From IMG/VR virus record IMGVR_UViG_3300036826_000261, positions 1-64,000 of that record: DNA of 64,000 nt; one strand, written 5' to 3'. This document shows, one piece after another, positions 23,882 to 64,000 of the stretch (position 1 is its first letter; every line of letters starts with the position of its first letter). The notes below the pieces were generated by a model that made no database searches, was not told where the DNA came from, and was given only the letters and a program-made list of their open reading frames with translations. Origin of the DNA: a virus. Made by a program: the position numbers and the translations under genes.

Positions 23882-25628
23882 TGCGTGGCGCAAGATTCTC
23901 GGCGAAACGCTGGCGGAAGAGCGCGCCAATTGGCAGCGCAGTCGCGAATTGTCGGAAGCGCGATCCGCGCAGATCATCGCCGAGCTGAAGACGCAATCGA
24001 TGCAGCTCGTCACCGAGCTGGCGACGCGCACGTTCGAGTTGGAGCGCAAGCTTGAAGCATTGGTGCATCAGAAGTTGTCCGATGCCGAAGTCATGATAAA
24101 AGATCGCTTGTCCAACTTGCGCGATGGTGCGCCCGGCGAGAAGGGTGAGCGCGGCGAGCGCGGCGAGAAAGGTGATCCGGGTGGCATCGGGTTAACAGGG
24201 CCGCAAGGCTATGCCGGTGAACGCGGCGAAAAGGGTGAACGCGGTGCTGTAGGTGCGCCCGGGCCGCAAGGATCGCAGGGCGAGCGCGGCGAGAAGGGCG
24301 AGCGCGGTGACGTTGGTACTGTCGGGGAGACGGGCGAAAAAGGTGATCGGGGCGAGCGGGGCGAACCAGGAGAAAGAGGCGAACATGGCGAAAAAGGCGA
24401 GCAAGGCGAAAAAGGCGAGCAAGGCGAAAAGGGCGAGCGCGGCGAACAAGGACCGCGCGGTGAAGCGGGTACGCCCGGGCGGCAAGGCGAAAAAGGCGAA
24501 AAAGGCGAAGCGGGCGAGGACGGCAGCGACGGACTGACCATCATCGGACCCGAAGGCCCGTGCGGGCCTTCCGGTCCGCGTGGTGAGCGCGGCGAGACCG
24601 GGCGGGAAGGTCTGCGCGGTCAGCCGGGCGCAATGGGTCCGGTCGGCGGGCAAGGCCCGCGCGGCGAACCGGGCGAGCCCGGTGCACCGGGTGCGGATGG
24701 CCCGGCAGGTCCGGCAGGCTCGGTCGGTCCAAGCGGACCACCGGGCGAGTCCGGCGCACCGGGCGATATCGGCCCGATGGGTCTGCGCGGACCTATGGGC
24801 GAGCGCGGTGAGCGCGGTGAGCGCGGCGCCAAGGGCGATCCCGGCGATATCGTGATCGGTCCGCAAGGGCCTGCAGGCGAACGTGGTGAGCGCGGCGCAC
24901 CGGGCGCGCATGGTCCGACAGGTCCGGTCGGTCCACGCGGTGAACAGGGCAAGCCGGGGCGTGACGGAGTTGACGGAGTACGCGGCGCACCGGGCGCGCA
25001 TGGTCCGACAGGTCCGGCTGGTCCGCGCGGCGAGCCGGGTCTACCTGGGCGTGACGGAGCTGACGGAGCGCGCGGCGCCGATGGCGCACGTGGCGCCGAC
25101 GGCGCGCCGGGGCGTTTGCCGCCGGTCAAGCAGTGGCAAGCCGACGTCGTGTATTATGCCGGCGACGTGGTGAGCCACGAGCGCGGATCGTATCAGGCGC
25201 TGAAAGACACCAGCCGGCAGCCGGGCCGTAATCACGATTGGATTTGCATCGCCAGCGGCGGCGTCGATGCACGGTCGCCGCATGTGCGCGGCACCTATGA
25301 TCCAACGGCCAGCTATCAGGCGCTCGACATCGTTGTCAGCAACGGCGGCAGTTTCATCGCCAGGAAAGACGATCCGGGCGAGCTGCCGGGCGACGGCTGG
25401 CAATTGATGGCGCGGCAAGGCCAGCGCGGCGTTGCCGGCGAGAAGGGCGAACGCGGCGAGCCCGGCGCACCGGGAGCGAAAGGCGAGCCCGGCGAGGTGG
25501 TGTTCAAGGGCTGGACCCATGACTGGAAAAACTTCGTTGCCGTGCCGCTGATGGCCGATGGCAAGCGTGGTCCGACCTTGGAGCTGCGCGGTTACTTCGA
25601 GCAATTCCAGAAAGACACCGATGGCTGA
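23802..25628 (+). CDS. Collagen-like (Gly-X-Y) virion protein
   Basis: Long GEKGERG/GPXG tracts; C-terminal Y..GDVV...GS and GTYDP...Y..LDIV modules. Confidence 0.88.
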   Translation: MTMQPQSNGKADEFLLPPPESTDILLDAWRKILGETLAEERANWQRSRELSEARSAQIIAELKTQSMQLVTELATRTFELERKLEALVHQKLSDAEVMIKDRLSNLRDGAPGEKGERGERGEKGDPGGIGLTGPQGYAGERGEKGERGAVGAPGPQGSQGERGEKGERGDVGTVGETGEKGDRGERGEPGERGEHGEKGEQGEKGEQGEKGERGEQGPRGEAGTPGRQGEKGEKGEAGEDGSDGLTIIGPEGPCGPSGPRGERGETGREGLRGQPGAMGPVGGQGPRGEPGEPGAPGADGPAGPAGSVGPSGPPGESGAPGDIGPMGLRGPMGERGERGERGAKGDPGDIVIGPQGPAGERGERGAPGAHGPTGPVGPRGEQGKPGRDGVDGVRGAPGAHGPTGPAGPRGEPGLPGRDGADGARGADGARGADGAPGRLPPVKQWQADVVYYAGDVVSHERGSYQALKDTSRQPGRNHDWICIASGGVDARSPHVRGTYDPTASYQALDIVVSNGGSFIARKDDPGELPGDGWQLMARQGQRGVAGEKGERGEPGAPGAKGEPGEVVFKGWTHDWKNFVAVPLMADGKRGPTLELRGYFEQFQKDTDG

Positions 25629-30488: not shown

Positions 30489-30917
30489 ATGTCGATAGCT
30501 GACGCTACCGAAAACGCTATTCTCTTGCTGATTTTCAACGCTACCACCTGGGCGAACTACGCCAACAATGCTTCGACGTCGCCGGAGACCAACATCATTT
30601 GCGCGTTGCACACCGCAGACCCCGGTGACGCCGGCGCGCAGAATACGTCCGAGATCGGCTATTCGTCCTATGCGCGGGTCAACGTCGCGCGCACCTCGGG
30701 CGGCTGGACGGTGACCGCCAACAGCGTCAGTCCGGTCGCCGCGATCAACTTCCCGGCCGGCACCGGCGGCTCCGGCACTGCATCGTTCTTCTCGACCGGC
30801 AAGTCCGGCGGCGGCGCTTCGCCGATTTTGTGGAGCGGTACAGTAACACCTAATATCGTGTGCGGCAGCGGTGTCACGCCGAGCCTCTCGACGGCGACGA
30901 CGATCACGCTTGACTAG
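30489..30917 (+). CDS. Small tail/virion structural protein
   Basis: ENAIL.LIFN, ALHTADPG and Y.SYARV.V.R motifs; AGGAG RBS. Confidence 0.8.
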   Translation: MSIADATENAILLLIFNATTWANYANNASTSPETNIICALHTADPGDAGAQNTSEIGYSSYARVNVARTSGGWTVTANSVSPVAAINFPAGTGGSGTASFFSTGKSGGGASPILWSGTVTPNIVCGSGVTPSLSTATTITLD

Positions 30918-30942: not shown

Positions 30943-31011
30943 ATGAAGGCGATCGTCTTCATGATTGTCGTCGGGCTGATCGTTTATGTTCTGGCGATGT
31001 GGCTGGGTTGA
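30943..31011 (+). CDS. 22-aa hydrophobic peptide
   Basis: Manual translation MKAIVFMIVVGLIVYVLAMWLG*; GGGAG RBS. Confidence 0.4.
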   Translation: MKAIVFMIVVGLIVYVLAMWLG

Positions 31012-31012
31012 C

Positions 31013-31120
31013 GTGATGCCGTCATTTGCGACGGCGATCACCTTGAGCCAAGCCTGCCAATACCCTGCTTGGCCTCGCCGGGGGCACGCCGTGACACGTC
31101 CCGCCAAACCATGCCTAAGA
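31013..31120 (-). ncRNA. Solo GGY-NN guide RNA cassette 1
   Basis: Minus strand: TAGGCAT-GGTTT-GGCGG-GACGT-GTCAC-GGCGT-GCCCC(C)-GGCGA-GGCCA-AGCAG-GGTAT(T)-GGCAGGC..., ending in a hairpin at 31041-31013. Confidence 0.8.
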
Positions 31121-31126
31121 GCTTTG

Positions 31127-31155
31127 CAGCTAGGTGTGCTCAGCAGCCCTGTCAA
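31127..31155 (-). promoter_or_regulatory. Sigma70-type promoter for solo guide cassette 1
   Basis: TTGACA (31155-31150), 17 nt, TAGCTG; 9 nt upstream of the TAGGCATGG leader. Confidence 0.7.
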
Positions 31156-31175
31156 CCTGTGAAAGTAAATGAATC

Positions 31176-31925: not shown

Positions 31926-34900
31926 ATGGCTACTTATGTTTTTGTTGTCAGTGGCACGACGACCGGCGCACCGCCCGGTGATTATCAGGCCACGGGCTCG
32001 ACCTGGGACGTTATCGGCGGTGGTGGTTCGGGCGCAGTTGCCAGTGGTGGCGTGCAGCCGAATGCTGGTGGCGGTGGTGGTTGGTCGCAGATCGTCAACG
32101 TCGCGTGGTCGTCGGCGCAGACCGTGCAAATCGGTCAAGGCGGCGCGGCGAAATCGACCACCAACACGGCCGGCGCGGCGGGCACCGCGACATGGGCACG
32201 CATCGACGGTGGCGGCACCGCGCCTGCGACGACCGCGCAAGGCGTCTTAGCCAATCCCGGCAGTGGCGGCCTCGTCGGCAGCGGGACTGGCACGGCCGGC
32301 GGTTCGGTCACCGGCGCAGTTGGCACCACGACGCGCGCGGGCGGCAATGCCGGCGCTGAAAATGATACATCGTACGCCGGTCCCGGCGCTGGCGGCGCAG
32401 CCGGTCCGGGCGGCGCGGGCGGCACGGGTGGCGCTGATTCGCAGAACGGTCCGTACGGCGGCTCAGCTGGCGGCGGCGCCAATGGCGGCGGCGGTGCAGG
32501 CGGCGCCACCACGGGCGGGCAAGTTGGCACCCAAGGCGGTGCGTCGATCTCGACCGGCAATCAGACCGGCGCATCGGGCGGCACCACCAATACGGCGCCG
32601 ACAGCCGCGAACGCGGGCAGCAATGGATCAGGCGGCGGCGGTGGCTCTGGTAGTACTTCGTCGGGCACGGCAGCCGGGCGCGGTGGCGACGGCGGCGCCG
32701 GCAAGGAATACGATTCGTCGCACGGCTCCGGCGGTGGCGGCGGATCGGGTGGCGGCAACACCGCAGGCGGCACCAACGGTCAAGGCGGCACCGGTGGTCT
32801 GTACGGCGGTGGTGGCGGCGCATCGGGCTCCGGCAGTTCGGGTCTCGGCACTTCCGGCGCAGGCGCGCAGGGTCTGCTCGCGATCACCTACACGCCGAGC
32901 GGCGGGGCGCCGACGTGGGCCTTTGTCGGCGTCACAAGTGTCGTATCAGTTACAGCAGCAACGCACACGCTGAGCGAACCCGCAGGTGTGCAGCAGGGCG
33001 ACTTGCTCGTTGCTGTGATTTCATCGCGTATTGCTTCCACGACATCGATCACCTTGCCATCTGGCTGGTCGCTGGTCGCTGAGGCAAAGAACAATAACAC
33101 GCTCACGACGTCGAGTGCCGCAGCATCCGGCATGATGGCGTACTGCGTGCGGGGCGCCTCGGCGCCAAGCTTTACTTTTACGCACCCGACTGCACCCAGT
33201 GTTGCGCTAGGCTATGTCGTTGCTTATCGCAACAACGATCCGAGCCCTTTGGACGTCCATACGGCTTGGACCACAGCGACGAACACGACAGCTGTTTCCG
33301 GCGCAGGCGTCACTACGGGTTTTGCTTCAGACCTGATCGTGGTTGGCACCTGTGGCGGTCAGGAGGCGACGTGGACAGCGTTGTCTGCGGCAACCGATCC
33401 GTCCGGGGCTAGCGGCACTGGTGGCCAGACCGGAAACCCGGTGACGGGGTCTTGGCTGGAGCGCGCTGAAAACACTACTACGACCGGCGCCGACACGTCG
33501 TTGGGAATCTTCGATGCGGTACGCGGCACGGCCGGCGCGACTGGCAATATATCGGTCACAGCCGGGACGGCTGCGGCGCATGTGCTCGTCATTGGCGCCT
33601 TCAAGCTTGCGCCGCCCGCTGGCAATAACGGCGCGGCGGCGGGCACTGGTACTGCGAGCGCGGTCGGCACCGGGCTCAAGATCGCGCAGGGTGCCGCAGC
33701 GGGCACATCTACCGCGAGCGCGACCGGCAGTGGTGCGGGCAGCGGCCAAGGCGTCGCGAGCGGCACCGGTGCAGCGAGCGCGGTCGGCATCGGGCTCAAG
33801 ATTGCGCAGGGTGCTGCAGCGGGCACATCTACCGCGAGCGCGACCGGCAGCGGCGGCGCTGTTGCTCCGGCTTTCGTGCAGCACGTTACGCCGAACGCGT
33901 TTCAAGGCGGCAGTTCTGCAAGTGCGACCGGCGCGGCGGTGGGCGTCGGCAATTGCGTCGTCGGCGCGGTGTCGTGGCAGCGCGCCGACACGCTCGATCT
34001 CACGTCGGTCACCGACGACAAGGGCAACACTTACACGATCGTGGATCGTGGAGGCGATCCAGGTAACGCACAGACTCACGTCACTTTCATTCTCTGGAAT
34101 ATCACCAACGGCCCTTCGACGATCACGGCGAACTTCAGCCAGTCTGAAGGCATCAACGACATCGTCTGGGATGAATATTCGGGAGTTCTGACTACCGATC
34201 CGCGCGATGGTCACGCGATCAATCTGCAAAGTCCCGCCAGCAACACCACCGATGCGGCGACGTCGGGCAGCATTACGACCACCGTCGCCAACGATCTGAT
34301 CTGGTCGTCGATCGTTGATTGCCAAGGCTCCAGTCAGAACGGCTACGCGGCGGGCACCGGCTACACCAAGCGCGGCACGTTCTGGCTTTCTGGTTACGGC
34401 GCGACCGAAGACAAGACCCTGGCCACGCCGGGCAGTGTCGCCGGCACGTGGACGCTGACCACTTCGTCGGTTGTTGCGGTTGCGGTGATCGCGCTGAAGC
34501 CGGCTTTGCCGGCTGGTGCCGGCAGCGGTGCGGCTGCGGGCACCGGCGCCGCCAACGGCGTCGGACAATCGACGGCGGTGGCTGCCGGGTCGGCCGCCGG
34601 CACTTCGACCGCGAGCGCGACCGGCAGCGGAGCGAGCAACAGCACGGGGTCGAGCGCAGGCACCGGCGCAGCGAGCGGCGTCGGGCGCAGCACATTCCTC
34701 GCCACGGCAGTCGCGACCGGCACGGGCGCGGCCTCGGCGACCGGGACTGCGGCAGCGGCCGGCACAGGCAATGCGTCGGGCGCGGGTGCAGCGTCCGCCA
34801 CCGGGGCCGCCACGGTGGTGGCGACCGGCAGCACCGCCGGCACCAGCAGCGCGCAGGCGCAAGCCGCCGGGCAGGGCGCGACGTCCGGAACCGGCACGGC

Positions 34901-38070: not shown

Positions 38071-38257
38071 GAAGGGTGACCCGTTCCCAGATCACCCTTC
38101 ACTTGTGCCGACCATGACGAGACCGGCCCGGCCAGACGGCGCCAAGGCCAAACCCCGACAAACCACGCCTGCCAAGTCTGGCTTTGCTTGGCCAAATCTT
38201 ACCGCGCCAGACCTTGTCGCGCCGAACCGCGCCTGTCCTCGCCTGCCATGCCTAAGA
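38071..38257 (-). ncRNA. Solo GGY-NN guide RNA cassette 2 (two units)
   Basis: Minus strand: TAGGCATGGCA, 14 pentamers, GGCA, about 8 pentamers; ends in hairpin GAAGGGTGA/TCACCCTTC (38071-38100) followed by ATGCTTTT. Confidence 0.85.
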
Positions 38258-38264
38258 ATTGGTG

Positions 38265-38293
38265 TAGGTAGTTTATTTGTTTGCGACTGTCAA
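38265..38293 (-). promoter_or_regulatory. Sigma70-type promoter for solo guide cassette 2
   Basis: TTGACA (38293-38288), 17 nt, TACCTA; 10 nt upstream of the TAGGCATGG leader; same geometry as cassette 1. Confidence 0.7.
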
Positions 38294-38310
38294 GTTCGGG
38301 AATCGTTGTA

Positions 38311-40806
38311 ATGGCGACTGAACAAGAGCAACTGGAACTTGTCGTCACGCTTGATGATCAAGAAGCGCTGGCGAAGCTTGCCAATCTGAAAAATCAACTG
38401 GCCAACATGGGGTCAGGGTCTTCGGGGTTTGGCAAGGTCGGTGAGAGTGTCGAGCGTGCAACCAAAGGCGTCAAGGATTTAAGCTTCGAGATCGCCAAGG
38501 GCACGTTCTGGGGCAACATGTTTGCCGAGGCAGGCAAGGAAGTTCTCAAGTTCGGCGAAAAAGTTGTCGAGAGCGCGACGGACATCCAAGGGTTATCGAA
38601 ATCGATCGTCGATCTTTCGACGACCGCTTCGCGCATGGGAACAAGTTTAGGTCAACTGCGCTCCAATCTGCGCGTGTTCGATGAAATGGGAGTCGATGCC
38701 GGCAAGGCCACTGCGACATTGCAGGGTTTGGCCGATTCGATGGGCGATCTGCAAACGATTAACGGTCGGCTGCGCGGTCAATTGCGCAGTGGCGGATTTC
38801 TCGAACTACAGGAGATGCTGAAGGTTCTGCAAGACGCTGACGAGGCGAAGACGGTCGAAGAGTTCGGCGAGACCATGCGCAAGGCCGCCGAGAAGGTGCG
38901 GGAGCGTTGGACCGATCTCGCCGGTCCTGAAAAAGGCGCAGAGATGCAGCGGCGGTTTCTGGCGTTGCTCAAGGCGCCGGAGCTGGATCAGCTCGAAGGC
39001 AAACTCGGCAAAATAAACAAACAACAAGATGAGTTTTCCAAAAGACAGGAAACCATTCTGAAGCAATTCTACGCGGCTAGTCGCGGTATGGCGGAAGGTC
39101 TTGAGCGCATCGGGCAAGCGATCGGCACGGTGGTTGCAGCGATGAATTTGCCGTGGATGCAGACATTGGCCGACACGTTCAAAGCTGGTGCGGAATACGC
39201 CGAACGCATTGCGCTGGCGCTGACCAAGTTGAATGTCACACCAACAGAGGCAAAAAGCGCGATCCAAGACACGTTCGGCAAGTTTGGTCTAGGTGTGCCG
39301 GCGCCGAGTTTCAACGAGCGTTTCGGGACATGGCCCGGTGCGACCGCGGCGCCGATGAAATTCATCGGCGGCAGTGTGCAGGGCGGTGAGTGGGACAGCC
39401 GCAATTTCACGGCCAGCGGCAACGATTTTTGGCGCAATCTGCAGGGTCGCGGCGACGTCGATATCGAAGACCGGCGCAATCTCGAAGATAACACCGATCA
39501 GACCAAACAGCTCACTGAGCAGATGCGCCAGCTCAATGATGCATTGACCAATCCGATGGCGACGGGACGTGGCGGCGGCTTGGCTGCGATGGGCGCAGCG
39601 CTCGGTCTCGGCGATCTCGGCGGTGGCGGTGGCGGCGGCGGTGGCGGCGGCGGCGGCGGTCGTGCGCGACCGTGGGCGCTACGCAGTCCGAGTGATGCGC
39701 CTTACGGCAATGATGCTGGACCCGGCACCGGCAAGGGTGCCGGTGAATCCCCTGCGGCCATGGGTGCCCCACCGGGTCCCGGCGGTCCTGGTGGCATTAC
39801 GGCGCCGGCCGGGACGCCGATCATGCGCGGCGGCACTACAACGGTGACGACGGCGAGCGGGCACAAGTTTCAGGTTGCTGCCGCCTACGCGAAAAATTTC
39901 CAGGGCTTCATCAACGATTACGAAGCGGCTGGCGGTGTCATCGGTCCCAATTCCGGCACGCTTGGCAGTCGGCCGAGCAATGCATCTGGACATCCGATCG
40001 GTACGGCGTTCGATCTCAATCAAGTCGCGCGCAACGTTCGCAAGGGTGGCGTATCGCTGCCGCAGGAGCAAGAGGAAGCGCTGGCGAAAAAATGGGGTCT
40101 TGTCTCGGGCAGCCAGTGGCGCAATCCCGATGCCGGACATTTCGGCATTCGCAGCGCCAAGGCAGCGCGCGACGCGTTGATCGCCAATGGCGTGCCGGAG
40201 GGTGAAGCCAACAAGATCGTCGGCGGTGCCGCCAGCGGCGGGGCGGTCGGCGGCAGTGCCGGTGATGCCGCCAAGGTTAGGGGCTCATGGTTCGGCAACG
40301 CACCGGGTTGGCATGACCCATCCGAGCCGGTGGATAGTCCGAAGAGCAATCGGCCCGGCATTGCGTTGCCGTCCAAAGCGACGCTTGGTCAGATGTTCGA
40401 GGTGACGACGCCGGACGGTCGCAAATTTATGTTGCCGCAAACCGATGTCGGACCGGCAGCGCGCACCGGGCGCGGCGTTGATATCACGGCGGCAGCGGCG
40501 GCGAGGATGGGTTATACCGCGAAGAATTTTCCGACCGATGAACGCTTCATGGTGCAGCCGGCGTCCAAAAGCATGGACGCAGCGATTGCCCGTGGCGCGG
40601 AGCTGGATAAGGAGCGCGAAACGACGGTGACCGGCAAAGGCCATTTGAAAGTCGATATCAATGGCCCACCCGGCACGCGAGCGAGCGCGACGGGCGAAGG
40701 GCTGCTGAAAGACACCTCGATTTCGCGTGCGACGCAGATGGCGCCGGCCAGCTCCGGGCCGACCAATCCGGCCGGCGACACGCCGTACGTGTTCGGCGGG
40801 ACTTAA
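38311..40806 (+). CDS. Tape measure protein with C-terminal M15-like peptidase and DPBB/RlpA-like domains
   Basis: Helical N-terminal half; S.H..G.AFDLN...WGL.SG..W...D..HF; TDVGP...TGR.VDIT..AA; position after the chaperone. Confidence 0.8.
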   Translation: MATEQEQLELVVTLDDQEALAKLANLKNQLANMGSGSSGFGKVGESVERATKGVKDLSFEIAKGTFWGNMFAEAGKEVLKFGEKVVESATDIQGLSKSIVDLSTTASRMGTSLGQLRSNLRVFDEMGVDAGKATATLQGLADSMGDLQTINGRLRGQLRSGGFLELQEMLKVLQDADEAKTVEEFGETMRKAAEKVRERWTDLAGPEKGAEMQRRFLALLKAPELDQLEGKLGKINKQQDEFSKRQETILKQFYAASRGMAEGLERIGQAIGTVVAAMNLPWMQTLADTFKAGAEYAERIALALTKLNVTPTEAKSAIQDTFGKFGLGVPAPSFNERFGTWPGATAAPMKFIGGSVQGGEWDSRNFTASGNDFWRNLQGRGDVDIEDRRNLEDNTDQTKQLTEQMRQLNDALTNPMATGRGGGLAAMGAALGLGDLGGGGGGGGGGGGGGRARPWALRSPSDAPYGNDAGPGTGKGAGESPAAMGAPPGPGGPGGITAPAGTPIMRGGTTTVTTASGHKFQVAAAYAKNFQGFINDYEAAGGVIGPNSGTLGSRPSNASGHPIGTAFDLNQVARNVRKGGVSLPQEQEEALAKKWGLVSGSQWRNPDAGHFGIRSAKAARDALIANGVPEGEANKIVGGAASGGAVGGSAGDAAKVRGSWFGNAPGWHDPSEPVDSPKSNRPGIALPSKATLGQMFEVTTPDGRKFMLPQTDVGPAARTGRGVDITAAAAARMGYTAKNFPTDERFMVQPASKSMDAAIARGAELDKERETTVTGKGHLKVDINGPPGTRASATGEGLLKDTSISRATQMAPASSGPTNPAGDTPYVFGGT

Positions 40807-52841: not shown

Positions 52842-54124
52842 CCAGAAAAATTATCGGCGAACAACACCCCAACGTGCGGGCGGGCACCAGTCCGCCGCAT
52901 CCTGCGCAAACCGATTCGACCGTGCCGGTCACCGACGTGGTGCAGATCGGTCCGCCGGGGCCGCCCGGCCCGAACGGTCCGCCGGGACCGCCCGGCCCGA
53001 CTGGCGCGGTCGGGCAGACCGGTCCGCAGGGGCCGCAAGGCCCGCAGGGACCGCAAGGCCCGCAGGGCTCGCAAGGCCCGCAGGGACCATCCGGGCCGCC
53101 CGGCGGCCTCGGCGAAGCGCCGAGCGACAGCACGTCCTACGGCCGCAGAAACGCGGCGTGGTCGTCGGTCACCGAAGAGGCGCCGAACGACGGCCAGACC
53201 TACGGTCGCAAGAACAAGGCATGGGTGGTCGGCGGCGGCGGTGGCGCCACGGTCACCGCGTCGGATACGCCGCCGGGCTCGCCGAGCGCCGGCAGCCTGT
53301 GGTTCAACACAACCAACGGCCAGCTCTACATCTATTTCAACGACGGCACATCGTCGCAATGGGTGTTCGCGTCGGGTGGCGTGCAGAATCAACCGCAGGT
53401 GCCGCGCGGCGCGCTCGGCGGGTTGACGCTGTCCACGGCGGGCAGTTCGGCGACGTTCACGGTGCAGCCCGGACGCGCTGCGGATTCCACCGCTGCATTG
53501 CTGATGAACCTCGCATCGGCGATGAACAAGACCACCAGCGCATGGGCGGCGGGCAGCGGCAACGGCGCGCTCGACACCGGCGCGATCAGCGCGGCGGCTT
53601 GGTACCATGTCTTTTTGATCATGAACCCGACGTCGGGCGCGGTCGATATCCTGATCTCGCTGTCGGCGACGGCACCGACCATGCCGTCCGGCTACACGCT
53701 GTTCCGGCGCATCGGCTCGATGCTGACCGCGTCGTCGCTGTGGGTGAAATTTTCGCAGCGCGGCGACGAATTTTTGTGGGATGCGCCGGTCGTCAACGCC
53801 AGCGCAGTCGCGTTCACCGTGACTGCGACATTGCTGGCGCTGGGTGTGCCGCCGGGGATTCAGGTCAACGCGTTCGGGCAGGTGCGCGCCGACTACGCCA
53901 CCAACGCGGCGACTTTCACGCTGTCATCGCCGGACATCACGGCGCCGGTGGTCGGCAGCGCCACGTCATCGTTGGTGGTCTCGGGTACTTCCACCAACTC
54001 GGTCAGTTACTTCAACATCCGCACCAACACCGCGCAGCAAATCCGTTATCAGGCCAACGGCACCGGTCCGACCTTCAGCCTGGGCACGTTCGGCTGGATC
54101 GATCGTCGCGGCAAGGACGATTAG
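52838..54124 (+). CDS. Tail fibre/spike protein with collagen and fibritin-foldon-like motifs
   Basis: GPQ tract; two EAP.D...YGR.N.AW motifs; G.LWF.T..G.LYIY; MPSGYT..RRIGS. Confidence 0.8.
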
Positions 54125-54125
54125 C

Positions 54126-55640
54126 ATGCTGGATTTTCCCAATTCGCCATCGCTCAATCAGTTGTTTCCGACCACCAACCCGCAATGGCAGTGGAACGGC
54201 ACGGCGTGGACGCCCTATGTGCTGTCGCAGGTGTCCGGGCTGCAGGTCAAGGTTCGGGTGTTCACTTCGACGCAGACCTACGCGCCGACGCCCGGCTTGC
54301 AATTCGCAATGGTTGAATGTCTCGGCGGCGGTGGCGGTGGCGGCGGCTGCGGCGGCGCTGCATCGCAATCGGTCGGGTCGGGCGGCGGCGCGTCCGGCTC
54401 GTACTCGCGGTCGCTGTTGAGCGCCGCGCAGATCGGCGCGTCACAGGCCATTACCATCGGCGCGGCGGGCTCTGGCGGCGCGTCCGGGCAGAACAACGGC
54501 GGCACCGGCGGCCAGACATCGTTCGGTGCACTGGTGACGGCGCCGGGCGGCGGCGGTGGTGTCGCCGGCAGCGGCGCGGCCAGCCCGTCGAACGGCATTG
54601 CCGGCGCGGCGGGTGTCGGTGATTTCGCGATCCGAGGCAATGATGGCGGTTCCGGCATGTACGTGCCTTCGGCCACCGCGACCGCCTATGGCGGCTTCGG
54701 CGCGCCGAGCCAGTTCGGCGGCATGGCGTGCGCGCTGCAAGCGGCGTCATCGGCCTCGAACGGCAGTACGGGCAAAGGTTACGGTGCGGGTGGCTCGGGC
54801 GGCGCCTCGATGGGCGTTGCGACCACGGCGTCCGGCGGCGCCGGTGTCGCGGGCGTCTGTATCGTCACCGAGTTCGGCAATTTCGGCTATGTGCCGCCGA
54901 TCTTCGTCATGCGTTCGTATCTCGCCGGCTATACGTTGTCATCGCCAGGGTCTTCGAGCTTGTTCACGGCGCAGCCGGGACAAGCCGCCGATTCGACCAA
55001 TGCCGACTACATCAGCCTGACGGCGGCGATCAACAAATCCACTAGTGCGTGGGCGGCCGGCACCGGCAATGGCGGGCTCGACACCGGCGCGATCGCGATC
55101 AACACGTGGTACCACGTTTTCGCGATCAAGAACCCAACGACAAATGTCGTCGATATTCTGATTTCGCTATCGGCGACGGCGCCGACCATGCCAAGCGGCT
55201 ACACGCTGTTCCGGCGCATCGGTTCGATCAAGACCAATTCGTCATCGCAATGGAAGGGGTTCAGCCAGCGTGGTGATGAATTTATCCTGACTGAAACGCT
55301 GACCCAAGATGTTAACACAACAACTCTCGGCACAACGGCGACGCCGTACACCTTGGCGTCGGTTCCGAGCGGCATTCAGGTCATCGCGATGTTTCGCGGC
55401 TCGATGCAAAACGCAGCAGGAAACGCCATCACGATTTCGTCACCGGATGAATTGTCGGTGGCGGTCAACACCCCCGCCGGCAACTTGACGATCTCGAATG
55501 GCGCTGGGTTGACAGTTGATTTCCAACTGCAGCTTCGAACTAACACAAGTCAGCAGATTCGCGCGGTGTCGCTGAATGCGAACACAACTTTCTATGTCGT
55601 GCCGTACGGTTGGCTCGATCGGCGCGGCCAAGACAACTAA
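54126..55640 (+). CDS. Gly-rich tail fibre-related protein
   Basis: DFP.SP...Q and W.W.GTAW N-terminus; Gly-rich domain; C-terminal domain paralogous to the previous gene. Confidence 0.8.
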   Translation: MLDFPNSPSLNQLFPTTNPQWQWNGTAWTPYVLSQVSGLQVKVRVFTSTQTYAPTPGLQFAMVECLGGGGGGGGCGGAASQSVGSGGGASGSYSRSLLSAAQIGASQAITIGAAGSGGASGQNNGGTGGQTSFGALVTAPGGGGGVAGSGAASPSNGIAGAAGVGDFAIRGNDGGSGMYVPSATATAYGGFGAPSQFGGMACALQAASSASNGSTGKGYGAGGSGGASMGVATTASGGAGVAGVCIVTEFGNFGYVPPIFVMRSYLAGYTLSSPGSSSLFTAQPGQAADSTNADYISLTAAINKSTSAWAAGTGNGGLDTGAIAINTWYHVFAIKNPTTNVVDILISLSATAPTMPSGYTLFRRIGSIKTNSSSQWKGFSQRGDEFILTETLTQDVNTTTLGTTATPYTLASVPSGIQVIAMFRGSMQNAAGNAITISSPDELSVAVNTPAGNLTISNGAGLTVDFQLQLRTNTSQQIRAVSLNANTTFYVVPYGWLDRRGQDN

Positions 55641-60443: not shown

Positions 60444-61178
60444 ATGGCGACCATGTCGAAAAAGGCAATCATCACCTGGGAGACCGACGACGGCAGCGGG
60501 CCGCCGGTCGGCATCTGGCCGGAGCCGGGCTATCCGGCGCACCCGATTGCGCCGGGCGGACCGCCGCCGGGCGTGTGGCCGGGACCGGGCTATCCGGCGC
60601 ACCCGATCGTGATTCCGCCGGACAAGCCCGGTGAGCCGCCGACCGTGATCTGGCCGGGGCCGGGCTATCCGGCGCATCCGATCGCGCCGGGCGGACCACC
60701 GCCGGGTTATTGGGGTGGCGTGGCGCCGCCGTTGCCGACACATCCGATCGCACCGGGTGGACCGCCGCCGGGCATCTGGCCGGGGCCGGGCGTGCCGACG
60801 CCGCCGATCCATTATCCGCCGATCATCTGGCCGCAGCCGCCGGAGGGCGGACCGCCGATCGCGATCGATCCGGGACATCCCGAACATCCGATCGTAATTC
60901 CGACACCGCCCGGCACGGTGTGGCCGCCGGATGCATCTATCGAGCATCCGATCGTGCTGCCGCTGCCGCCGGAAATCTGGCCGAAGCCGGGGGTGCCGAC
61001 GCATCCGATCGTGATTCCGCCGGAGCAGCCACCGGAGAAGCCGCAACTGATCACGTGGTATGCCGGCTGGTCGGACAAGACCGGTTGGGTCGTGGTCGGC
61101 GTGCCGAACGTGCCGCATCCGACGCCGTCGAAGGCCGGCGGACCGGGCGGACCGGGCGGGCCGAAGAAAGGGCCATGA
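60444..61178 (+). CDS. Proline-rich repeat protein
   Basis: AGGAG RBS; repeated WPGPGYPAHPI and P.HPIV.P units. Confidence 0.8.
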   Translation: MATMSKKAIITWETDDGSGPPVGIWPEPGYPAHPIAPGGPPPGVWPGPGYPAHPIVIPPDKPGEPPTVIWPGPGYPAHPIAPGGPPPGYWGGVAPPLPTHPIAPGGPPPGIWPGPGVPTPPIHYPPIIWPQPPEGGPPIAIDPGHPEHPIVIPTPPGTVWPPDASIEHPIVLPLPPEIWPKPGVPTHPIVIPPEQPPEKPQLITWYAGWSDKTGWVVVGVPNVPHPTPSKAGGPGGPGGPKKGP

Positions 61179-61362: not shown

Positions 61363-62241
61363 ATGGCGAAAAAGGCACCCGTCAGTGAAATCATCGAAAT
61401 CCAAGCTATCGAAATGGCGTCGCTGGATTTCCATGTGGTCGGCACCAGCCCGTTCATCATGCATCGCTTCAGTCAGAAGGCGTGGCAGGAATTGCTGCTG
61501 CCGTCGATCCGCGAAAACCGCGCTAGTCTCGAACAGAAGCTCAAGCATGATCCGTATGCAGAATTTCGTGGCGCGTTCTATCGCAACAGCAATCCGCGCG
61601 CCAAGACGGCGTACCATATTCCAAACGGCGCGTTTCACGGCGCGATCGCCAGCGCCGCGCTCGACATGCCGGGTGCCAAGAAGGCGCAGATCGAGCGGTT
61701 GACCAAGATCACCAGCGTCAACATCGAACTGTATGGCATCCCGAAAATCTTTTGCAGCATGGTGCGTAACAGCGACATCTCGCGCACGCCAGATGTGCGC
61801 ACCCGGCCGATCTTCCCGCGCTGGGCGTGCACGGTTTCGGTGCGCTACGCGAAGAACGCGTTGACGGCCAAAGCCGTCGCCAATCTGTTCGGCGCGGCGG
61901 GCGAGATCATCGGCATCGGTGATTGGCGCGGTCAGAAGGGCGGACCGTTCGGCGCGTTCCGCACCAACGTGTCGGTGAACGATAAAGAGTTCAAGAGCAT
62001 CTTGAAGGAAGGCCGCGTCGCGCAATTGAAAGCTTACGACAAACCGTTGTTCTACGATGAAGACACGGAAGAAATTTTAACGTGGTTCGCCACCGAGGTG
62101 CGCCGCCGTGAGTTGGAAGGCAAGATGCGCAGCGATAACGTCAAGGAGTTTCGCGTTATCACCGAGCGCGGCAAGGAGCGCGGCAACGGCGAGTTGGTGA
62201 GCCTTGACGACAAGCGGCGGACCCGTCGAAAGGCCGCGTGA
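61363..62241 (+). CDS. Stand-alone RAMP/Cas7-like RNA-binding effector protein
   Basis: First-strand motif VVGTSPFIMH, helix motif IP..AF.GAI..AA, RPIFPRW and C-terminal Gly-rich loop AGEIIGIGDWRGQKGGPFG.F; GGGAG RBS; adjacent to the GGY-NN array. Confidence 0.8.
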   Translation: MAKKAPVSEIIEIQAIEMASLDFHVVGTSPFIMHRFSQKAWQELLLPSIRENRASLEQKLKHDPYAEFRGAFYRNSNPRAKTAYHIPNGAFHGAIASAALDMPGAKKAQIERLTKITSVNIELYGIPKIFCSMVRNSDISRTPDVRTRPIFPRWACTVSVRYAKNALTAKAVANLFGAAGEIIGIGDWRGQKGGPFGAFRTNVSVNDKEFKSILKEGRVAQLKAYDKPLFYDEDTEEILTWFATEVRRRELEGKMRSDNVKEFRVITERGKERGNGELVSLDDKRRTRRKAA

Positions 62242-62735
62242 TGGCGAAAGCCACCAAACACGACCGCATCAAAGCGGCGTTGGAAGCGATCAGGCGCTCG
62301 CATCGCGGGCGCTTGACGGCGCGGGCCGTGGTCGAGGCGGCCAAAAATCCTAGGCACCCGTTGCACAGTGAATTTGAATGGAACAACCAGAAAGCAGCGG
62401 ATCAGCAACGCTTGGAGCGTGCGCGCGAACTAATCAGATACGTCACGGTCGTGGTCGTTGATGCAACGCGTAAAGTCGAAACACGATTTTATGCGCACGA
62501 TCCGCGAACGCCGCATCGTGAAGGCTATGTCAGCATCTTGGAGATGAACCGCCGCGATGCTGAACAAGATGTGGTCAACGCTATCGCGATCTGTCAATCG
62601 ACGATCGATCGCGCGCTCAGCAAAGCGGAATTTCTCAGCGCGAAGCATCGTGGTGTTTCACGATTGTTGAAAAATGCAGTTGCTACCCTTGCCGCCGCGC
62701 ATGATCTGCTCGAAGGCTCGGCGGCAGCGGCGTGA
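62238..62735 (+). CDS. Partner protein of the RAMP-like gene
   Basis: LT...VV.AA.....PLH..FEW....AA...RL..AR.LIR motif; GTGA overlap with the RAMP gene. Confidence 0.8.
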   Translation: MMAKATKHDRIKAALEAIRRSHRGRLTARAVVEAAKNPRHPLHSEFEWNNQKAADQQRLERARELIRYVTVVVVDATRKVETRFYAHDPRTPHREGYVSILEMNRRDAEQDVVNAIAICQSTIDRALSKAEFLSAKHRGVSRLLKNAVATLAAAHDLLEGSAAAA

Positions 62736-62740
62736 AGTCA

Positions 62741-62961
62741 TAGGCATGGCAGGCTAGGCAAGGTGCGGCCCGGCCGGAGTAGGTTCGGTGCGGCAAGGCA
62801 GGCATGGCCCGGGAGACGCGGTGAAGCGTGTCCGTGATCTGGTAGCGTCGGGTAAGGCGGCGTTGGATGGGGTGAGGCGAGGCAGGCTTGGTCAGGTCTG
62901 ACGAGACTGGGCGCGGTAGGTTTTGGCGCGGTACGGCAAGGCGTGATGCGGTAAGGCAGGC
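62741..62961 (+). ncRNA. GGY-NN guide array, block 1 (three units)
   Basis: TAGGCATGGCAGGC leader; GGCA delimiters at 62748, 62797, 62881 and 62955; 5-nt periodicity. Confidence 0.85.
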
Positions 62962-63219
62962 ATGGCCAGAAACACAGCGGATAAGGTTCTCGAAAACAAG
63001 TTGCGGCTGATCGCCAAACGGCGGGGTTTGTTTCTTTCGAAATCCCGTCGTCGCGATCCGTTTGCGCTCGACTTTGGTTATGAGTTGAGAGACGCGCAAC
63101 AGCACGTCATCGAAACAGCGTGCAGTCTTACTCGAATCGAAAACTTGTTAGCTCTCGGTCGGACGGGGCGGAAACGTTTAACAGTCGAAGGATGGCGTCA
63201 CATCATCCTTGGTAAGTAG
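62962..63219 (+). CDS. Small basic protein embedded in the guide array
   Basis: KV.EN.LR..A.R.GL.L.KSRRRDP.A.D.G motif; non-repetitive sequence between the two array blocks. Confidence 0.7.
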   Translation: MARNTADKVLENKLRLIAKRRGLFLSKSRRRDPFALDFGYELRDAQQHVIETACSLTRIENLLALGRTGRKRLTVEGWRHIILGK

Positions 63220-64000
63220 GCATGGCAGGCGTGGCCGGGCCGGGTTGTCCCCGGTGTGGCAGAGCATGGCAGCGCAGGGTTGACATGGCAGGGCAGGCAG
63301 GGTCCGTCGTGGTCGCGCGGGATTGGGCGGGGCAAGGCACGGCACGATGCTGGTCTGGCGAGGCGTGGCAGGCATGGCTGGATCAGGCGTGACGAAGCTT
63401 GGTGTAGCTAGGCCGGGTGCAGTGTAGGCATGGCGAGGCAGGCGCGGCGGGACAAGGTCCGATATGGCGTGGCGCGGTCTGGTTCGGTCTGGCCGGGTTT
63501 GGCAGGCAAGGTGCGTCGAGGCCAAACATGGTGTGACAAGGTACGGCGCGGCCTGATCTGGGCTCGACTGGGCAGGCGCGGTGGGTTCTGGCTCGACATG
63601 GTTAGGCGAGGCCCGGTGATGCCCGGCATGTTGAAGTGCGTCCTGGCAGGCGTGGCGGGGGTGCGTGCGAGGCGGGACCGGGCAAGGTCGGGCACGTTAT
63701 ATGGTCTGGCTGGGCACGGCTTGGCGGGTCACGGCAAGGCACGGCCGGCAAGGTTTGTCCGGAACCGGTTTGGCTTGGCGAGATGCGATTAGGCGAGGCG
63801 AAGCGAGGCCGGCTAAGCGTGACTTGGTCGGGTAGACGTGGCCGGGCACGGTAGCGGCGTGGATCGGCCGGCGACGCTAGGCTTGTCGTCGATCGGCATG
63901 ACATGGCGCGGCACGGCGAGGCGTGGTTCGGCCGGCGCGATTAGGTGTGGTCGGAATCGGCATGGCTCGGTGTCGCGTGGTCTGGCGTGGCTCGGCTGGG
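63217..64000 (+). ncRNA. GGY-NN guide array, block 2 (at least 11 units, truncated by the window end)
   Basis: Leader TAGGCATGGCAGGC; GGCA/GGCC delimiters at 63224, 63292, 63367, 63437, 63501, 63571, 63645, 63743, 63807, 63866 and 63930; many units are exactly 4+5n nt. Confidence 0.9.

What the first reader, a model, noticed from the sequence alone, without database searches (positions are those of the whole stretch)
62748..62796. First array unit targets the RAMP effector gene itself or a rival's homologue
Seen: unit NN = TA AA GC CC CG TA TC GC AA; reverse complement TT GC GA TA CG GG GC TT TA, compatible with FAEYRGAFY. The RAMP gene at 61555-61581 reads TAT GCA GAA TTT CGT GGC GCG TTC TAT (YAEFRGAFY). 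The match is 7/9 dinucleotides (16/18 nt), with two reciprocal F/Y differences. Inference: either silencing of the equivalent system in competing phages or mismatch-tuned negative autoregulation.
Basis: partly seen in the sequence, partly recalled or inferred. Interest (0 to 1): 0.9.

Follow-up and report, generated by a model that had tools for sequence, protein, structure and literature searches.

The report
VIPR guide aimed at rival vipr
The first guide RNA unit in this soil phage's VIPR array (a CRISPR-like DNA silencer first described in 2026) spells a conserved stretch of the system's own protein gene in the version a related phage carries, so it is most likely aimed at rival VIPR systems; both the system and this kind of target are already in print.

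Summary
The nine NN dinucleotides of unit 62755-62799, reverse-complemented, match codon positions 1-2 of 61555-61581 at 16 of 18, in frame. This is the best hit in the 72.7-kb genome; the next best is 13. Chance is unlikely: 1 of 2000 guide shuffles, 1 of 400 genome shuffles and 1 of 3000 family-wise on this gene reached the observed score.

The locus is a VIPR system, published in 2026 bioRxiv preprints. The 292-aa gene is a Vipr homologue: its profile hits the solved SUSP1 Vipr at E 5e-7, and the GG-binding residues are invariant. It is followed by a vap gene and a 2.4-kb staggered GGY-NN array.

A natural phage contig (L099, Vipr 61% identical) carries the perfect 18/18 target, FAEYRGAFY, at the same codons.

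A sister guide (solo1) matches its own neighbouring gene at 19/22. It matches 28 sites in 26 other phage contigs at 22/22. The phage's own copy differs only by Leu and Ser codon-family switches.

The best reading is a guide against rival vipr alleles, with the phage's own allele two letters off. Autoregulation is not excluded.

Vipr-targeting guides are in print, and this scan has noted VIPR in at least 369 genomes. This is a new member of a known kind.

The parts
61363..62241 (+). vipr gene (292 aa), a RAMP/Cas7-like protein that binds the guide RNA
   Evidence: phrog_4652, no Pfam hit. A profile of 34 homologues hits PDB 36pp_D 'SUSP1 Vipr protein' at E 5.2e-7 across the G-loop. R148, D187, W188 and R189 are invariant in the alignment and align with SUSP1 R138, D177, W178 and R179, which bind the GG of each repeat. 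The AF2 model has pLDDT 78.1. The top Foldseek hits are Csm3/Cas7 chains, best 6xn3_F at E 4.4e-5.
61555..61581 (+). Near-target of guide unit 1 inside vipr: codons 65-73, YAEFRGAFY, matching 16/18
   Evidence: E67 is invariant and R69, G70 and Y73 are at least 90% conserved in alignment A1. The two mismatched codons are 65, which is hypervariable, and 68, which is F or Y.
62241..62735 (+). vap-like accessory gene (164 aa), overlapping the vipr stop codon
   Evidence: phrog_15946, no Pfam hit. A homologue lies next to vipr in 53 of 91 loci searched. The AF2 model has pLDDT 93.9. Foldseek gives only weak matches to winged-helix/PadR regulators, best E 0.028.
62741..62754 (+). TAGGCATGGCAGGC leader motif before unit 1
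   Evidence: TAGGCATGG occurs 4 times in the main array and once at the G-rich 5' end of each solo cassette.
62755..62799 (+). Guide unit 1: nine NN-GGY pentamers between two AGGC tetramers (the finding)
   Evidence: Parse. 16/18 to the phage's own vipr and 18/18 to the vipr of L099.
62740..64000 (+). Main staggered guide array; it runs on to about 65190 of the genome, beyond the window
   Evidence: Period-5 GG signal and G skew. 414 pentamers cut by 53 four-base steps; 37 units of 6-16 pentamers. Arrays lie beside vipr in 74 of 91 related records.
62962..63219 (+). 85-aa ORF embedded in the array, function unknown
   Evidence: ORF list. No Pfam or PHROG hit.
31030..31125 (-). Solo guide cassette 1 (11 units); it matches its own neighbouring gene at 30825-30857 at 19/22
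   Evidence: 28 perfect 22/22 sites in 26 IMG/VR contigs, all in frame as (I/M)LWSGTVTPNI.
38095..38260 (-). Solo guide cassette 2 (two units); unit A matches 38359-38400 of the tape-measure gene at 21/28 in the other orientation
   Evidence: P 0.0055; 0 of 400. A terminator-like hairpin lies at its 3' end, 38102-38069, minus strand. No perfect site in IMG/VR.

Best explanation
The locus is a VIPR system: vipr (61363-62241), a vap-like gene (62241-62735) and a staggered array of GGY-NN pentamer guides.

The published mechanism comes from the preprints, not from work here. One Vipr protomer binds each repeat and buries the GGY. The NN pairs are then presented to double-stranded DNA, pairing two bases and skipping one, so the skipped base falls on the codon wobble. 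The bound complex blocks transcription.

Unit 1 is a nine-repeat guide complementary to the coding strand of a conserved stretch of vipr, codons 64-73 (KHDP-xAE[F/Y]RGAxY). It fits the allele FAEYRGAFY, carried by related phages, perfectly. It differs from the phage's own allele YAEFRGAFY at two single bases, in the two least conserved codons.

My inference is that the guide shuts down the vipr-vap-array operon of a co-infecting or resident rival, and that the phage's own copy is spared by those two mismatches. The guide sits 1.2 kb from the resistant allele, so the two travel together.

What is shown here: the family membership, the match statistics and the existence of the perfect natural target. 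What is inferred: expression and processing of unit 1, binding, and whether 16/18 escapes silencing.
For: - VIPR membership: profile hit to the solved SUSP1 Vipr at E 5.2e-7; GG-binding residues invariant; Cas7/Csm3-like fold; arrays beside vipr in 74 of 91 related records; a vap homologue in 53 of 91 loci.
- The match is not chance: with P between 0.0003 and 0.0025.
- The skipped base is the wobble position, on the sense frame.
- Perfect natural target: L099 matches 18/18 in frame at codon 64, with the next best in that locus at 13.
- The three closest homologues with DNA score 16, 16 and 18. 72 of 79 non-self homologues score 14 or less.
- The guide equals one of only 2 sampled natural alleles that lie two substitutions from the phage's own, out of 1377 possible double substitutions.
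- Parallel case in the same genome: solo1 matches its own gene at 19/22 but 28 sites in 26 other phage contigs at 22/22. The phage's own copy differs only by Leu CTN>TTG and Ser TCN>AGC, the synonymous changes that a wobble-skipping guide can see.
- In a distant relative, G002, two of three units have their best genome-wide hits in frame in the gene just upstream of vipr.
- In four soil runs the target and unit 1 showed no listed difference, while one strain (X4) has 21 substitutions elsewhere in vipr.
Against: - Only one true vipr target with a perfect match was found in IMG/VR. The other two exact hits are out of frame with stop codons.
- L099 shares only the vipr and vap genes with this phage at the nucleotide level. 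Nothing shows that the two share a host.
- L099's own 13 units hold no significant guide against this phage.
- Vipr-directed guides are not general in this clade. 2 of 345 units reached P<=0.01 against 91 vipr genes, where about 3.5 were expected.
- The self-match of 0.89 exceeds the >=0.8 threshold that the preprints use to call targets. They reported no self hit above it in their sets. By printed criteria this is therefore a self-target.
- I found no quantitative mismatch tolerance in the main texts.
- One of the nine anchors is GAG, not GGY.
- No RNA data exist, so guide boundaries and expression are unverified.
- Corrected for about 40 units, the genome-wide P is only 0.02-0.1.
Confidence: 0.65

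Rival explanations
1. Negative autoregulation. Unit 1 binds the phage's own vipr at 16/18 with reduced affinity and damps transcription of the vipr-vap-array operon once enough complex has formed.
For: The self-match of 0.89 is above the 0.8 threshold used in print to call targets. The site lies 192 nt into the operon's first gene, where a roadblock would lower all downstream products. The pair showed no listed difference in four soil runs. The guide's match to its own gene equals or exceeds its match to 77 of 79 sampled non-self homologues.
Against: A perfect natural non-self allele exists, and the guide's two departures from the phage's own gene coincide with it. The sister guide solo1 shows the own copy differing by codon-family switches while 28 foreign sites are perfect. 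That pattern fits avoidance, not tuning. No near-self vipr guide turned up among the other related units scanned.
Confidence: 0.15
2. Chance resemblance. Unit 1 is a real guide with some other, unsampled target, and its likeness to vipr is a coincidence among about 40 units.
For: After correcting for about 40 units, the genome-wide P is 0.02-0.1. Two of the three exact IMG/VR hits of the 18-base pattern are plainly chance. The other 36 main-array units have no significant target in the genome.
Against: Family-wise P on this gene is 1 of 3000. The hit is in frame on the sense strand with the skip at wobble. It sits on the conserved motif. The perfect allele occurs at the orthologous codons of a homologue.
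Confidence: 0.08
3. Relic or tolerated self-match. The guide once matched an ancestral allele of the phage's own gene or a past rival, and it now persists without effect. Examples: unit 1 is not processed into a working guide, or nine repeats with a GAG anchor do not assemble.
For: Unit 1 is at the lower limit of the printed 9-16 repeats and has one non-GGY anchor. There is no expression evidence. Unlike the characterised type II vrRNAs, no conserved 3' tail follows the unit.
Against: Unit 1 showed no listed difference across four soil runs, while other units of the array vary. Eight of nine anchors are intact. Staggered arrays without tails are described in print (figure legend only).
Confidence: 0.1

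Closest known systems
VIPR systems (Vipr + vap + vrRNA); the type II systems of Escherichia phage SUSP1 and a Pseudomonas fulva prophage; bioRxiv 10.64898/2026.04.26.720920 (Results, Discussion and methods sections 26-27 read) and 10.64898/2026.04.26.720927 (abstract and first part of Results read)
   Same: A lone RAMP protein with the same GG-binding residues, an accessory gene and guides of 9-16 GGY-NN repeats. The NN read the target by the 1-nt skip rule with the skip at wobble. Targets lie on either strand. The system is phage-borne.
   Different: This Vipr has 292 aa against 202 for SUSP1, and sequence similarity to it is detectable only around the G-loop. The array is about 2.4 kb with 37 units that abut through four-base AGGC/CGGC steps rather than separate roughly 100-nt vrRNAs with a pseudoknot tail. 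Two guides match their own genome above 80%, which the preprint did not see in its sets.
vipr-targeting vrRNAs: solo vrRNAs of VIPR-null SUSP1-family phages, and P. fulva-clade vrRNAs that target other VIPR systems; bioRxiv 10.64898/2026.10.15.759431 (sections 8, 9, 17, 25 read) and 10.64898/2026.04.26.720920
   Same: A guide aligned on wobble positions against a conserved part of the vipr coding sequence. Self-match is lower than the best non-self match.
   Different: Here the guide is the first unit of the array of a phage that has its own vipr, in an unrelated soil clade. The self-match is high (0.89) and the guide sits 1.2 kb from the near-target. The printed test of native guides against their own vipr is in supplementary tables that I could not open.
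Staggered vrRNA arrays (fig. S18 of 10.64898/2026.04.26.720920; legend only seen)
   Same: Units follow one another with a one-base overlap. That is what a four-base AGGC step after ...GGC amounts to.
   Different: I could not see the figure or which VIPR type it belongs to. Processing at these steps is not shown here.
Class 1 CRISPR Cas7 backbone (Csm3/Cmr4, Cas7-11)
   Same: RRM core, G-loop and thumb fold. A filament forms along a guide, with periodic base flipping.
   Different: There are no CRISPR repeats, no Cas1/Cas2 and no second RAMP. Guide-to-target periodicity is 5:3 instead of 6:6.

Membership tests
VIPR system | Vipr: a stand-alone RAMP homologue (RRM core, G-loop, thumb) | tested here: met
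   The profile of 34 homologues hits PDB 36pp_D 'SUSP1 Vipr protein' at E 5.2e-7. The AF2 model's top Foldseek hits are Csm3/Cas7 chains at E 4.4e-5, probability 1.00.
VIPR system | Residues that hold the GG of each repeat (SUSP1 R138, D177, W178, R179) | tested here: met
   They align with R148, D187, W188 and R189, which are invariant in 34 of 34 aligned homologues.
VIPR system | vrRNA of 9-16 tandem GGY-NN pentamers with variable NN | tested here: met
   Unit 1 has 9 pentamers, 8 with GGY anchors. The array has 37 units of 6-16 pentamers. Related loci yielded 345 units from 65 records.
VIPR system | Conserved structured 3' tail after the repeat tract (type II) | tested here: not met
   Main-array units abut through 4-nt steps with no tail. 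This fits the printed 'staggered' variant, for which only the legend was seen. Solo cassette 2 ends in a terminator-like hairpin. For solo cassette 1 I read an inverted repeat at 31006-31040 in the sequence; the terminator scan found nothing there.
VIPR system | Targets read by the 1-nt skip rule, with the skip on codon wobble | tested here: met
   Unit 1, solo1 and solo2A each have their best genome-wide hit in codon phase. Solo1 has 28 perfect in-frame sites in 26 phage contigs with 23 distinct wobble variants.
VIPR system | Accessory vap gene beside vipr, predicted to bind DNA | tested here: inconclusive
   The neighbour gene is conserved in 53 of 91 loci. The fold model is confident, pLDDT 93.9. 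It matches winged-helix/PadR regulators only weakly, best E 0.028 and TM about 0.32-0.35. The PDB sequence search gave nothing meaningful.
VIPR system | vrRNA expressed and bound by Vipr; the complex binds dsDNA and represses transcription | not testable with these tools
   No run on record as RNA holds the locus. An experiment is needed.
vipr-targeting vrRNA | The guide matches a vipr coding sequence above the shuffled-guide null and is wobble-aligned | tested here: met
   16/18 to the phage's own vipr, 17/18 to L022 and 18/18 to L099. Family-wise P is 1 of 3000. The match is in frame.
vipr-targeting vrRNA | Self-match lower than the best non-self match (autoimmunity avoided) | tested here: met
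   Self-match is 0.89 against 1.00 for L099 and 0.94 for L022. Whether 0.89 really escapes silencing is untested.

The most novel reading that the evidence does not exclude
In this phage, guides and their own resistant alleles form linked poison-antidote pairs.

Each decodable guide lies within about 0.1-1.2 kb of the phage's own copy of the gene it attacks in rivals:
- unit 1 beside vipr
- solo1 beside the tail-fibre-like gene
- solo2A beside the tape-measure gene

The phage's own copy is spared by the only kinds of change a wobble-skipping guide can see. These are Leu and Ser codon-family switches, or swaps at tolerant residues (F/Y).

The pair would then act in mixed infections as a selfish module. 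It would silence the sibling allele and favour its own allele in recombinants. Applied to vipr itself, this would disarm the rival's whole VIPR system.

The natural 16/18 versus 18/18 pair would also give a ready-made calibration of VIPR's self/non-self threshold, which the main texts I read do not quantify.

Other agents of this scan have noted the same beside-its-own-copy layout in at least 6 other genomes. I found no statement of it in the main texts of the three preprints. One search for 'its own' in the October preprint, and the sections I read, are the only basis for that.
Probability: 0.35. Interest if true: 0.6.

Novelty: new member of a known kind. Interest (0 to 1): 0.4.

Why it matters
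It adds an uncultured soil-phage clade, with 292-aa Viprs and kilobase-long staggered arrays, to a system so far characterised in enterobacterial and Pseudomonas phages.

It is a natural case of a VIPR-positive phage whose own array points at the vipr gene. The perfect target is found in another phage, and the phage's own copy is two bases off.

Together with the recoded Leu and Ser codons beside solo1, this gives a concrete, testable pair of alleles for measuring how many mismatches VIPR tolerates. It also offers a hint on how phages avoid autoimmunity. Both questions matter for understanding phage-phage conflict and for using VIPR as a programmable DNA binder.

It does not change the picture of what VIPR is.

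Tried and rejected
**First ideas, dropped once the code was verified and the preprints were found**
- A TRAP-like RNA sponge.
- Rho utilisation sites.
- G-quadruplex or R-loop DNA.
- A partition centromere or iterons.
- Chi-like decoys.
- Quintuplet translation.
- A planted synthetic puzzle. Natural relatives in IMG/VR carry the same architecture.

**An uninformative scan.** An all-register scan of the array against the genome showed no excess over the reversed genome (121 against 141 hits at 16 or more). Low-complexity registers dominate it, so only the NN register is informative. A slip-tolerant local alignment over all registers was also too noisy.

**Targets of the other main-array units**
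- No significant hit in the phage's own genome: z from -1.7 to 2.2 for 36 units.
- None in a 1.0-Mb set of fetched loci: 20 units were tested and only unit 1 stood out, at P 0.024.
- Exact IMG/VR scans found nothing for two 12-unit guides, which decode as LGVVADVHTHPG and DTSVAMIETNYS.
- The exact scan for solo2A also found nothing.
- Exact scans cannot see 80-95% matches.

**Other negative or blank results**
- Reciprocal targeting: none of L099's 13 units is significant against this phage. The lowest P was 0.05.
- G001, a 67%-complete contig: none of 5 units had a significant self hit.
- The strict promoter scan found none for the two solo cassettes. The TTGACA-N17 boxes that I read by eye are not tool-supported.
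- Host: the only cultured-phage relatives of the Vipr are distant, at 27-31% identity (Gordonia phages and one cyanophage). The host was not determined.
- Expression: no RNA holder is listed.
- The DNA contigs of four soil runs were laid on the locus. They can show neither RNA ends nor expression levels.
- Vap: no Pfam hit, no meaningful PDB sequence hit and only weak fold matches.

**Limits on what could be seen**
Data S3 and fig. S15 of the first preprint and Supplementary Tables 11-18 of the October preprint hold the native guides scored against their own vipr. They may already contain cases like this one.
- My chance expectation for the 18-base pattern in IMG/VR (order one hit) is my own rough estimate from the stated 2.9 million contigs. 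It is not a tool result.

Full report
**What is there.** The window is the first 64,000 bases of a single 72,692-bp phage contig. It carries endolysins and tail-fibre genes. From about 62740 to about 65190 the + strand is G-skewed and has a strict five-base rhythm of GG. A dynamic-programming parse gives 414 NN-GGY pentamers. These are broken by 53 four-base steps, mostly AGGC or CGGC, into 37 units of 6-16 pentamers. Two short cassettes of the same build lie on the minus strand at 31030-31125 and 38095-38260. Each begins TCTTAGGCATGG on its G-rich strand. Just upstream of the main array are a 292-aa gene (61363-62241, phrog_4652) and a 164-aa gene (62241-62735, phrog_15946). Neither has a Pfam hit.

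**The observation.** The nine NN of 62755-62799, reverse-complemented, give TT GC GA TA CG GG GC TT TA. Codons 65-73 of the 292-aa gene (61555-61581, YAEFRGAFY) give TA GC GA TT CG GG GC TT TA at positions 1-2. That is 16 of 18, in frame. No other site in the genome, on either strand, reaches 14.
- Shuffling the order of the NN reached 16 in 1 of 2000 trials.
- Shuffling the genome in triplet blocks reached it in 1 of 400.
- Among 71 strictly in-register windows of the array, only this site reached 16, and none did on the reversed genome.
- About 40 units could have been tried, so the genome-wide figure corrects to roughly 0.02-0.1.
- The narrower question is whether any unit reaches this identity anywhere in this gene. 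That gives 1 of 3000.

**The code is real, here and elsewhere.** Two more guides have their best genome-wide hit next door and in codon phase.
- Solo1 matches 30825-30857 at 19 of 22 (0 of 2000 and 0 of 400 shuffles reached this).
- Solo2A matches 38359-38400 at 21 of 28, in the opposite orientation (P 0.0055; 0 of 400).
- The other 36 main-array units have no significant target in the phage's own genome.

Natural relatives show the same layout. Both IMG/VR contigs with a homologue of the 292-aa protein carry a pentamer array beside it. In G002 the anchors are GAC instead of GGC. Two of its three units have their best genome-wide hits (24/36 and 17/22) in frame in the 258-aa gene directly upstream. 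In 91 related records, 74 have a called array, nearly always on the strand of the gene.

**It is a published system.** A literature search found three 2026 bioRxiv preprints on VIPR, Viral Interference Programmable Repeat.
- I read the Results, the Discussion and methods sections 26-27 of 10.64898/2026.04.26.720920.
- I read the abstract and the first part of Results of 10.64898/2026.04.26.720927.
- I read sections 8, 9, 17 and 25, plus passages, of 10.64898/2026.10.15.759431.

According to these preprints, a lone RAMP protein (Vipr) polymerises on a vrRNA of 9-16 GGY-NN repeats. It buries each GGY and presents the NN. These pair with double-stranded DNA two bases at a time with one base skipped, usually the codon wobble, on either strand and without a PAM. 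The bound complex represses transcription. Natural targets are competing phages and satellites. [quoted passage not shown]

**Membership.**
- A profile of 34 homologues of the 292-aa protein hits the solved 'SUSP1 Vipr protein' (PDB 36pp_D) at E 5.2e-7 over the G-loop.
- The residues that hold the two guanines in SUSP1 are R138, D177, W178 and R179. They align with R148, D187, W188 and R189, which are invariant in the alignment.
- The AF2 model (pLDDT 78.1) is most like Csm3/Cas7 chains (E 4.4e-5).
- The second gene accompanies vipr in 53 of 91 loci. Its confident model (pLDDT 93.9) resembles winged-helix regulators only weakly.
- Unlike the characterised type II vrRNAs, the main-array units have no 3' tail. 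They abut with a four-base step, which fits the 'staggered arrays' named in print. I saw only that figure legend.

**Whose vipr does unit 1 fit?** Among 120 listed protein homologues (of 436 with E<=0.001), two carry the pattern [FL]A[DE]YRGA[FL]Y. Fifteen fit 8 of 9 residues, and the phage's own protein fits 7.

The contig of one of the two, P0013 (Vipr 61% identical), was fetched from IMG/VR as L099. It reads TTC GCT GAA TAT CGT GGG GCT TTT TAT at codon 64. That is 18 of 18 in frame, with the next best in that locus at 13.

At the orthologous site of 79 non-self homologues with DNA, the guide scores as follows:

| Score (of 18) | Homologues |
|---|---|
| 18 | 1 |
| 17 | 1 |
| 16 | 2 |
| 15 | 3 |
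| 14 or less | 72 |

The three closest homologues score 16, 16 and 18. The guide's two departures from the phage's own gene fall in the two least conserved codons. They reproduce one of only two sampled natural alleles at that distance, out of 1377 possible double changes.

An exact scan of IMG/VR found three contigs. One is L099's contig. The other two are hits that are out of frame, with stop codons.

**A parallel that explains the mismatches.** Solo1's pattern has 28 perfect sites in 26 IMG/VR contigs. All are in frame as (I/M)LWSGTVTPNI in homologues of the neighbouring tail-fibre-like gene, with 23 distinct wobble variants. The phage's own copy encodes the same peptide but uses Leu TTG and Ser AGC instead of CTN and TCN. 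These are synonymous changes that alter codon positions 1-2. Relaxing those two codons retrieves 64 sites in 62 loci:

| Leu + Ser codon families | Sites |
|---|---|
| CT + TC | 28 |
| CT + AG | 22 |
| TT + TC | 12 |
| TT + AG (the phage's own type) | 2 |

So in this genome a guide can sit beside a copy of its target that has been changed just enough not to match. For unit 1 the changes are F/Y swaps rather than synonymous ones.

**What speaks against, or limits, the reading.**
- Vipr-directed guides are not a general habit of this clade. 2 of 345 units from 65 records reached P<=0.01 against 91 vipr genes, where about 3.5 were expected.
- Near-self hits are only mildly enriched: 7 of 207 units at P<=0.01, where 2 were expected.
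- L099 shares only vipr and vap with this phage at the nucleotide level. It carries no significant guide against it.
- The self-match of 0.89 is above the 0.8 threshold that the preprints use to call targets. They saw no self hit above it in their sets.
- I found no quantitative mismatch tolerance in the main texts. Autoregulation therefore cannot be excluded.
- One anchor of unit 1 is GAG.
- No RNA run holds the locus.
- Contigs of four soil runs show no listed difference in the target or in unit 1, while one strain (X4) has 21 substitutions elsewhere in vipr and other array units vary.

**Verdict.** The system, and this class of target, are already in print. This scan has also noted VIPR in at least 369 other genomes and the guide-beside-its-own-altered-copy layout in at least 6. 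What is particular here is threefold. A vipr-positive soil phage has a first array unit that reads vipr. A natural perfect target has been identified. The self-match is above the printed threshold. I rate it a new member of a known kind, of moderate interest.

Noticed in passing
L009:13056-13958 and L002:7425-7700 (G002 34486-34745): In this distant relative the array anchors are GAC/GAT instead of GGC. The Vipr G-loop reads GVGDGRQ where this family has GIGDWRG. The tryptophan that stacks on the second G in SUSP1 is replaced exactly where the second anchor base changes from G to A, which may be protein-RNA covariation.
   Followed up: partly
window 30825-30857 and 31030-31125; L104-L165: The solo1 guide has 28 perfect sites in 26 phage contigs. 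The phage's own gene keeps the same peptide but switches the Leu and Ser codon families. Across 64 sites the family combinations are 28, 22, 12 and 2. This looks like an arms race played out in six-fold degenerate codons.
   Followed up: yes
window 31120-31175 (-), 38255-38310 (-), 63178-63206 (+): TTGACA-N17-TAGCTG or TACCTA boxes, read by eye, lie a few bases upstream of the TAGGCATGG leader of both solo cassettes. A scanned promoter-like site (TTAACA-17-CATCAT) lies just before the internal TAGGCATGG at 63217. The leader may mark transcription starts.
   Followed up: partly
window 62962-63219: An 85-aa ORF with no family hit sits inside the guide array, starting at the ATG of an AGGCATGGCC motif.
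   Followed up: no
window 63239-63790: Contigs from other soil runs differ from the window inside the array. There are many substitutions and indels, a 250-base skip at low depth and an 85-base step back. The region 61555-62850 is unchanged in runs X3 and X5. Guide content varies between strains.
   Followed up: partly
L099:12340-12400 and 12548: The last unit of L099's array matches a site 150 bases downstream in its own locus at 20/24 (P 0.01). This is another guide beside a near-copy of its target.
   Followed up: no
L048:383-452 and 4831: A 14-unit guide matches its own locus at 21/28 over FFTGAEAAAVLGMT, which looks like the helix-turn-helix of an excisionase or regulator.
   Followed up: no
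window 24001-25250: This stretch has a period-10 GG signal (0.22-0.26), a G skew up to 0.35 and GC up to 0.76. It was not examined.
   Followed up: no
window 53844-55640: This tail-fibre-like protein has a glycine-rich domain and a weak hit (E 0.0017, below the Pfam cut-off) to the second domain of Mtd, the diversity-generating-retroelement target of Bordetella phage. I did not look for a reverse transcriptase or template repeat.
   Followed up: no
G001 30632-30760 (L006): Tandem GTAACGAAA and GAGGAGAGTAGAG repeats lie here, unlike the guide arrays. They may be iterons of a replication origin.
   Followed up: no
window 60444-61178: A 244-aa proline-rich ORF (PPIxxP repeats) with no family hit lies directly before the terminator-like region that precedes vipr.
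   Followed up: no
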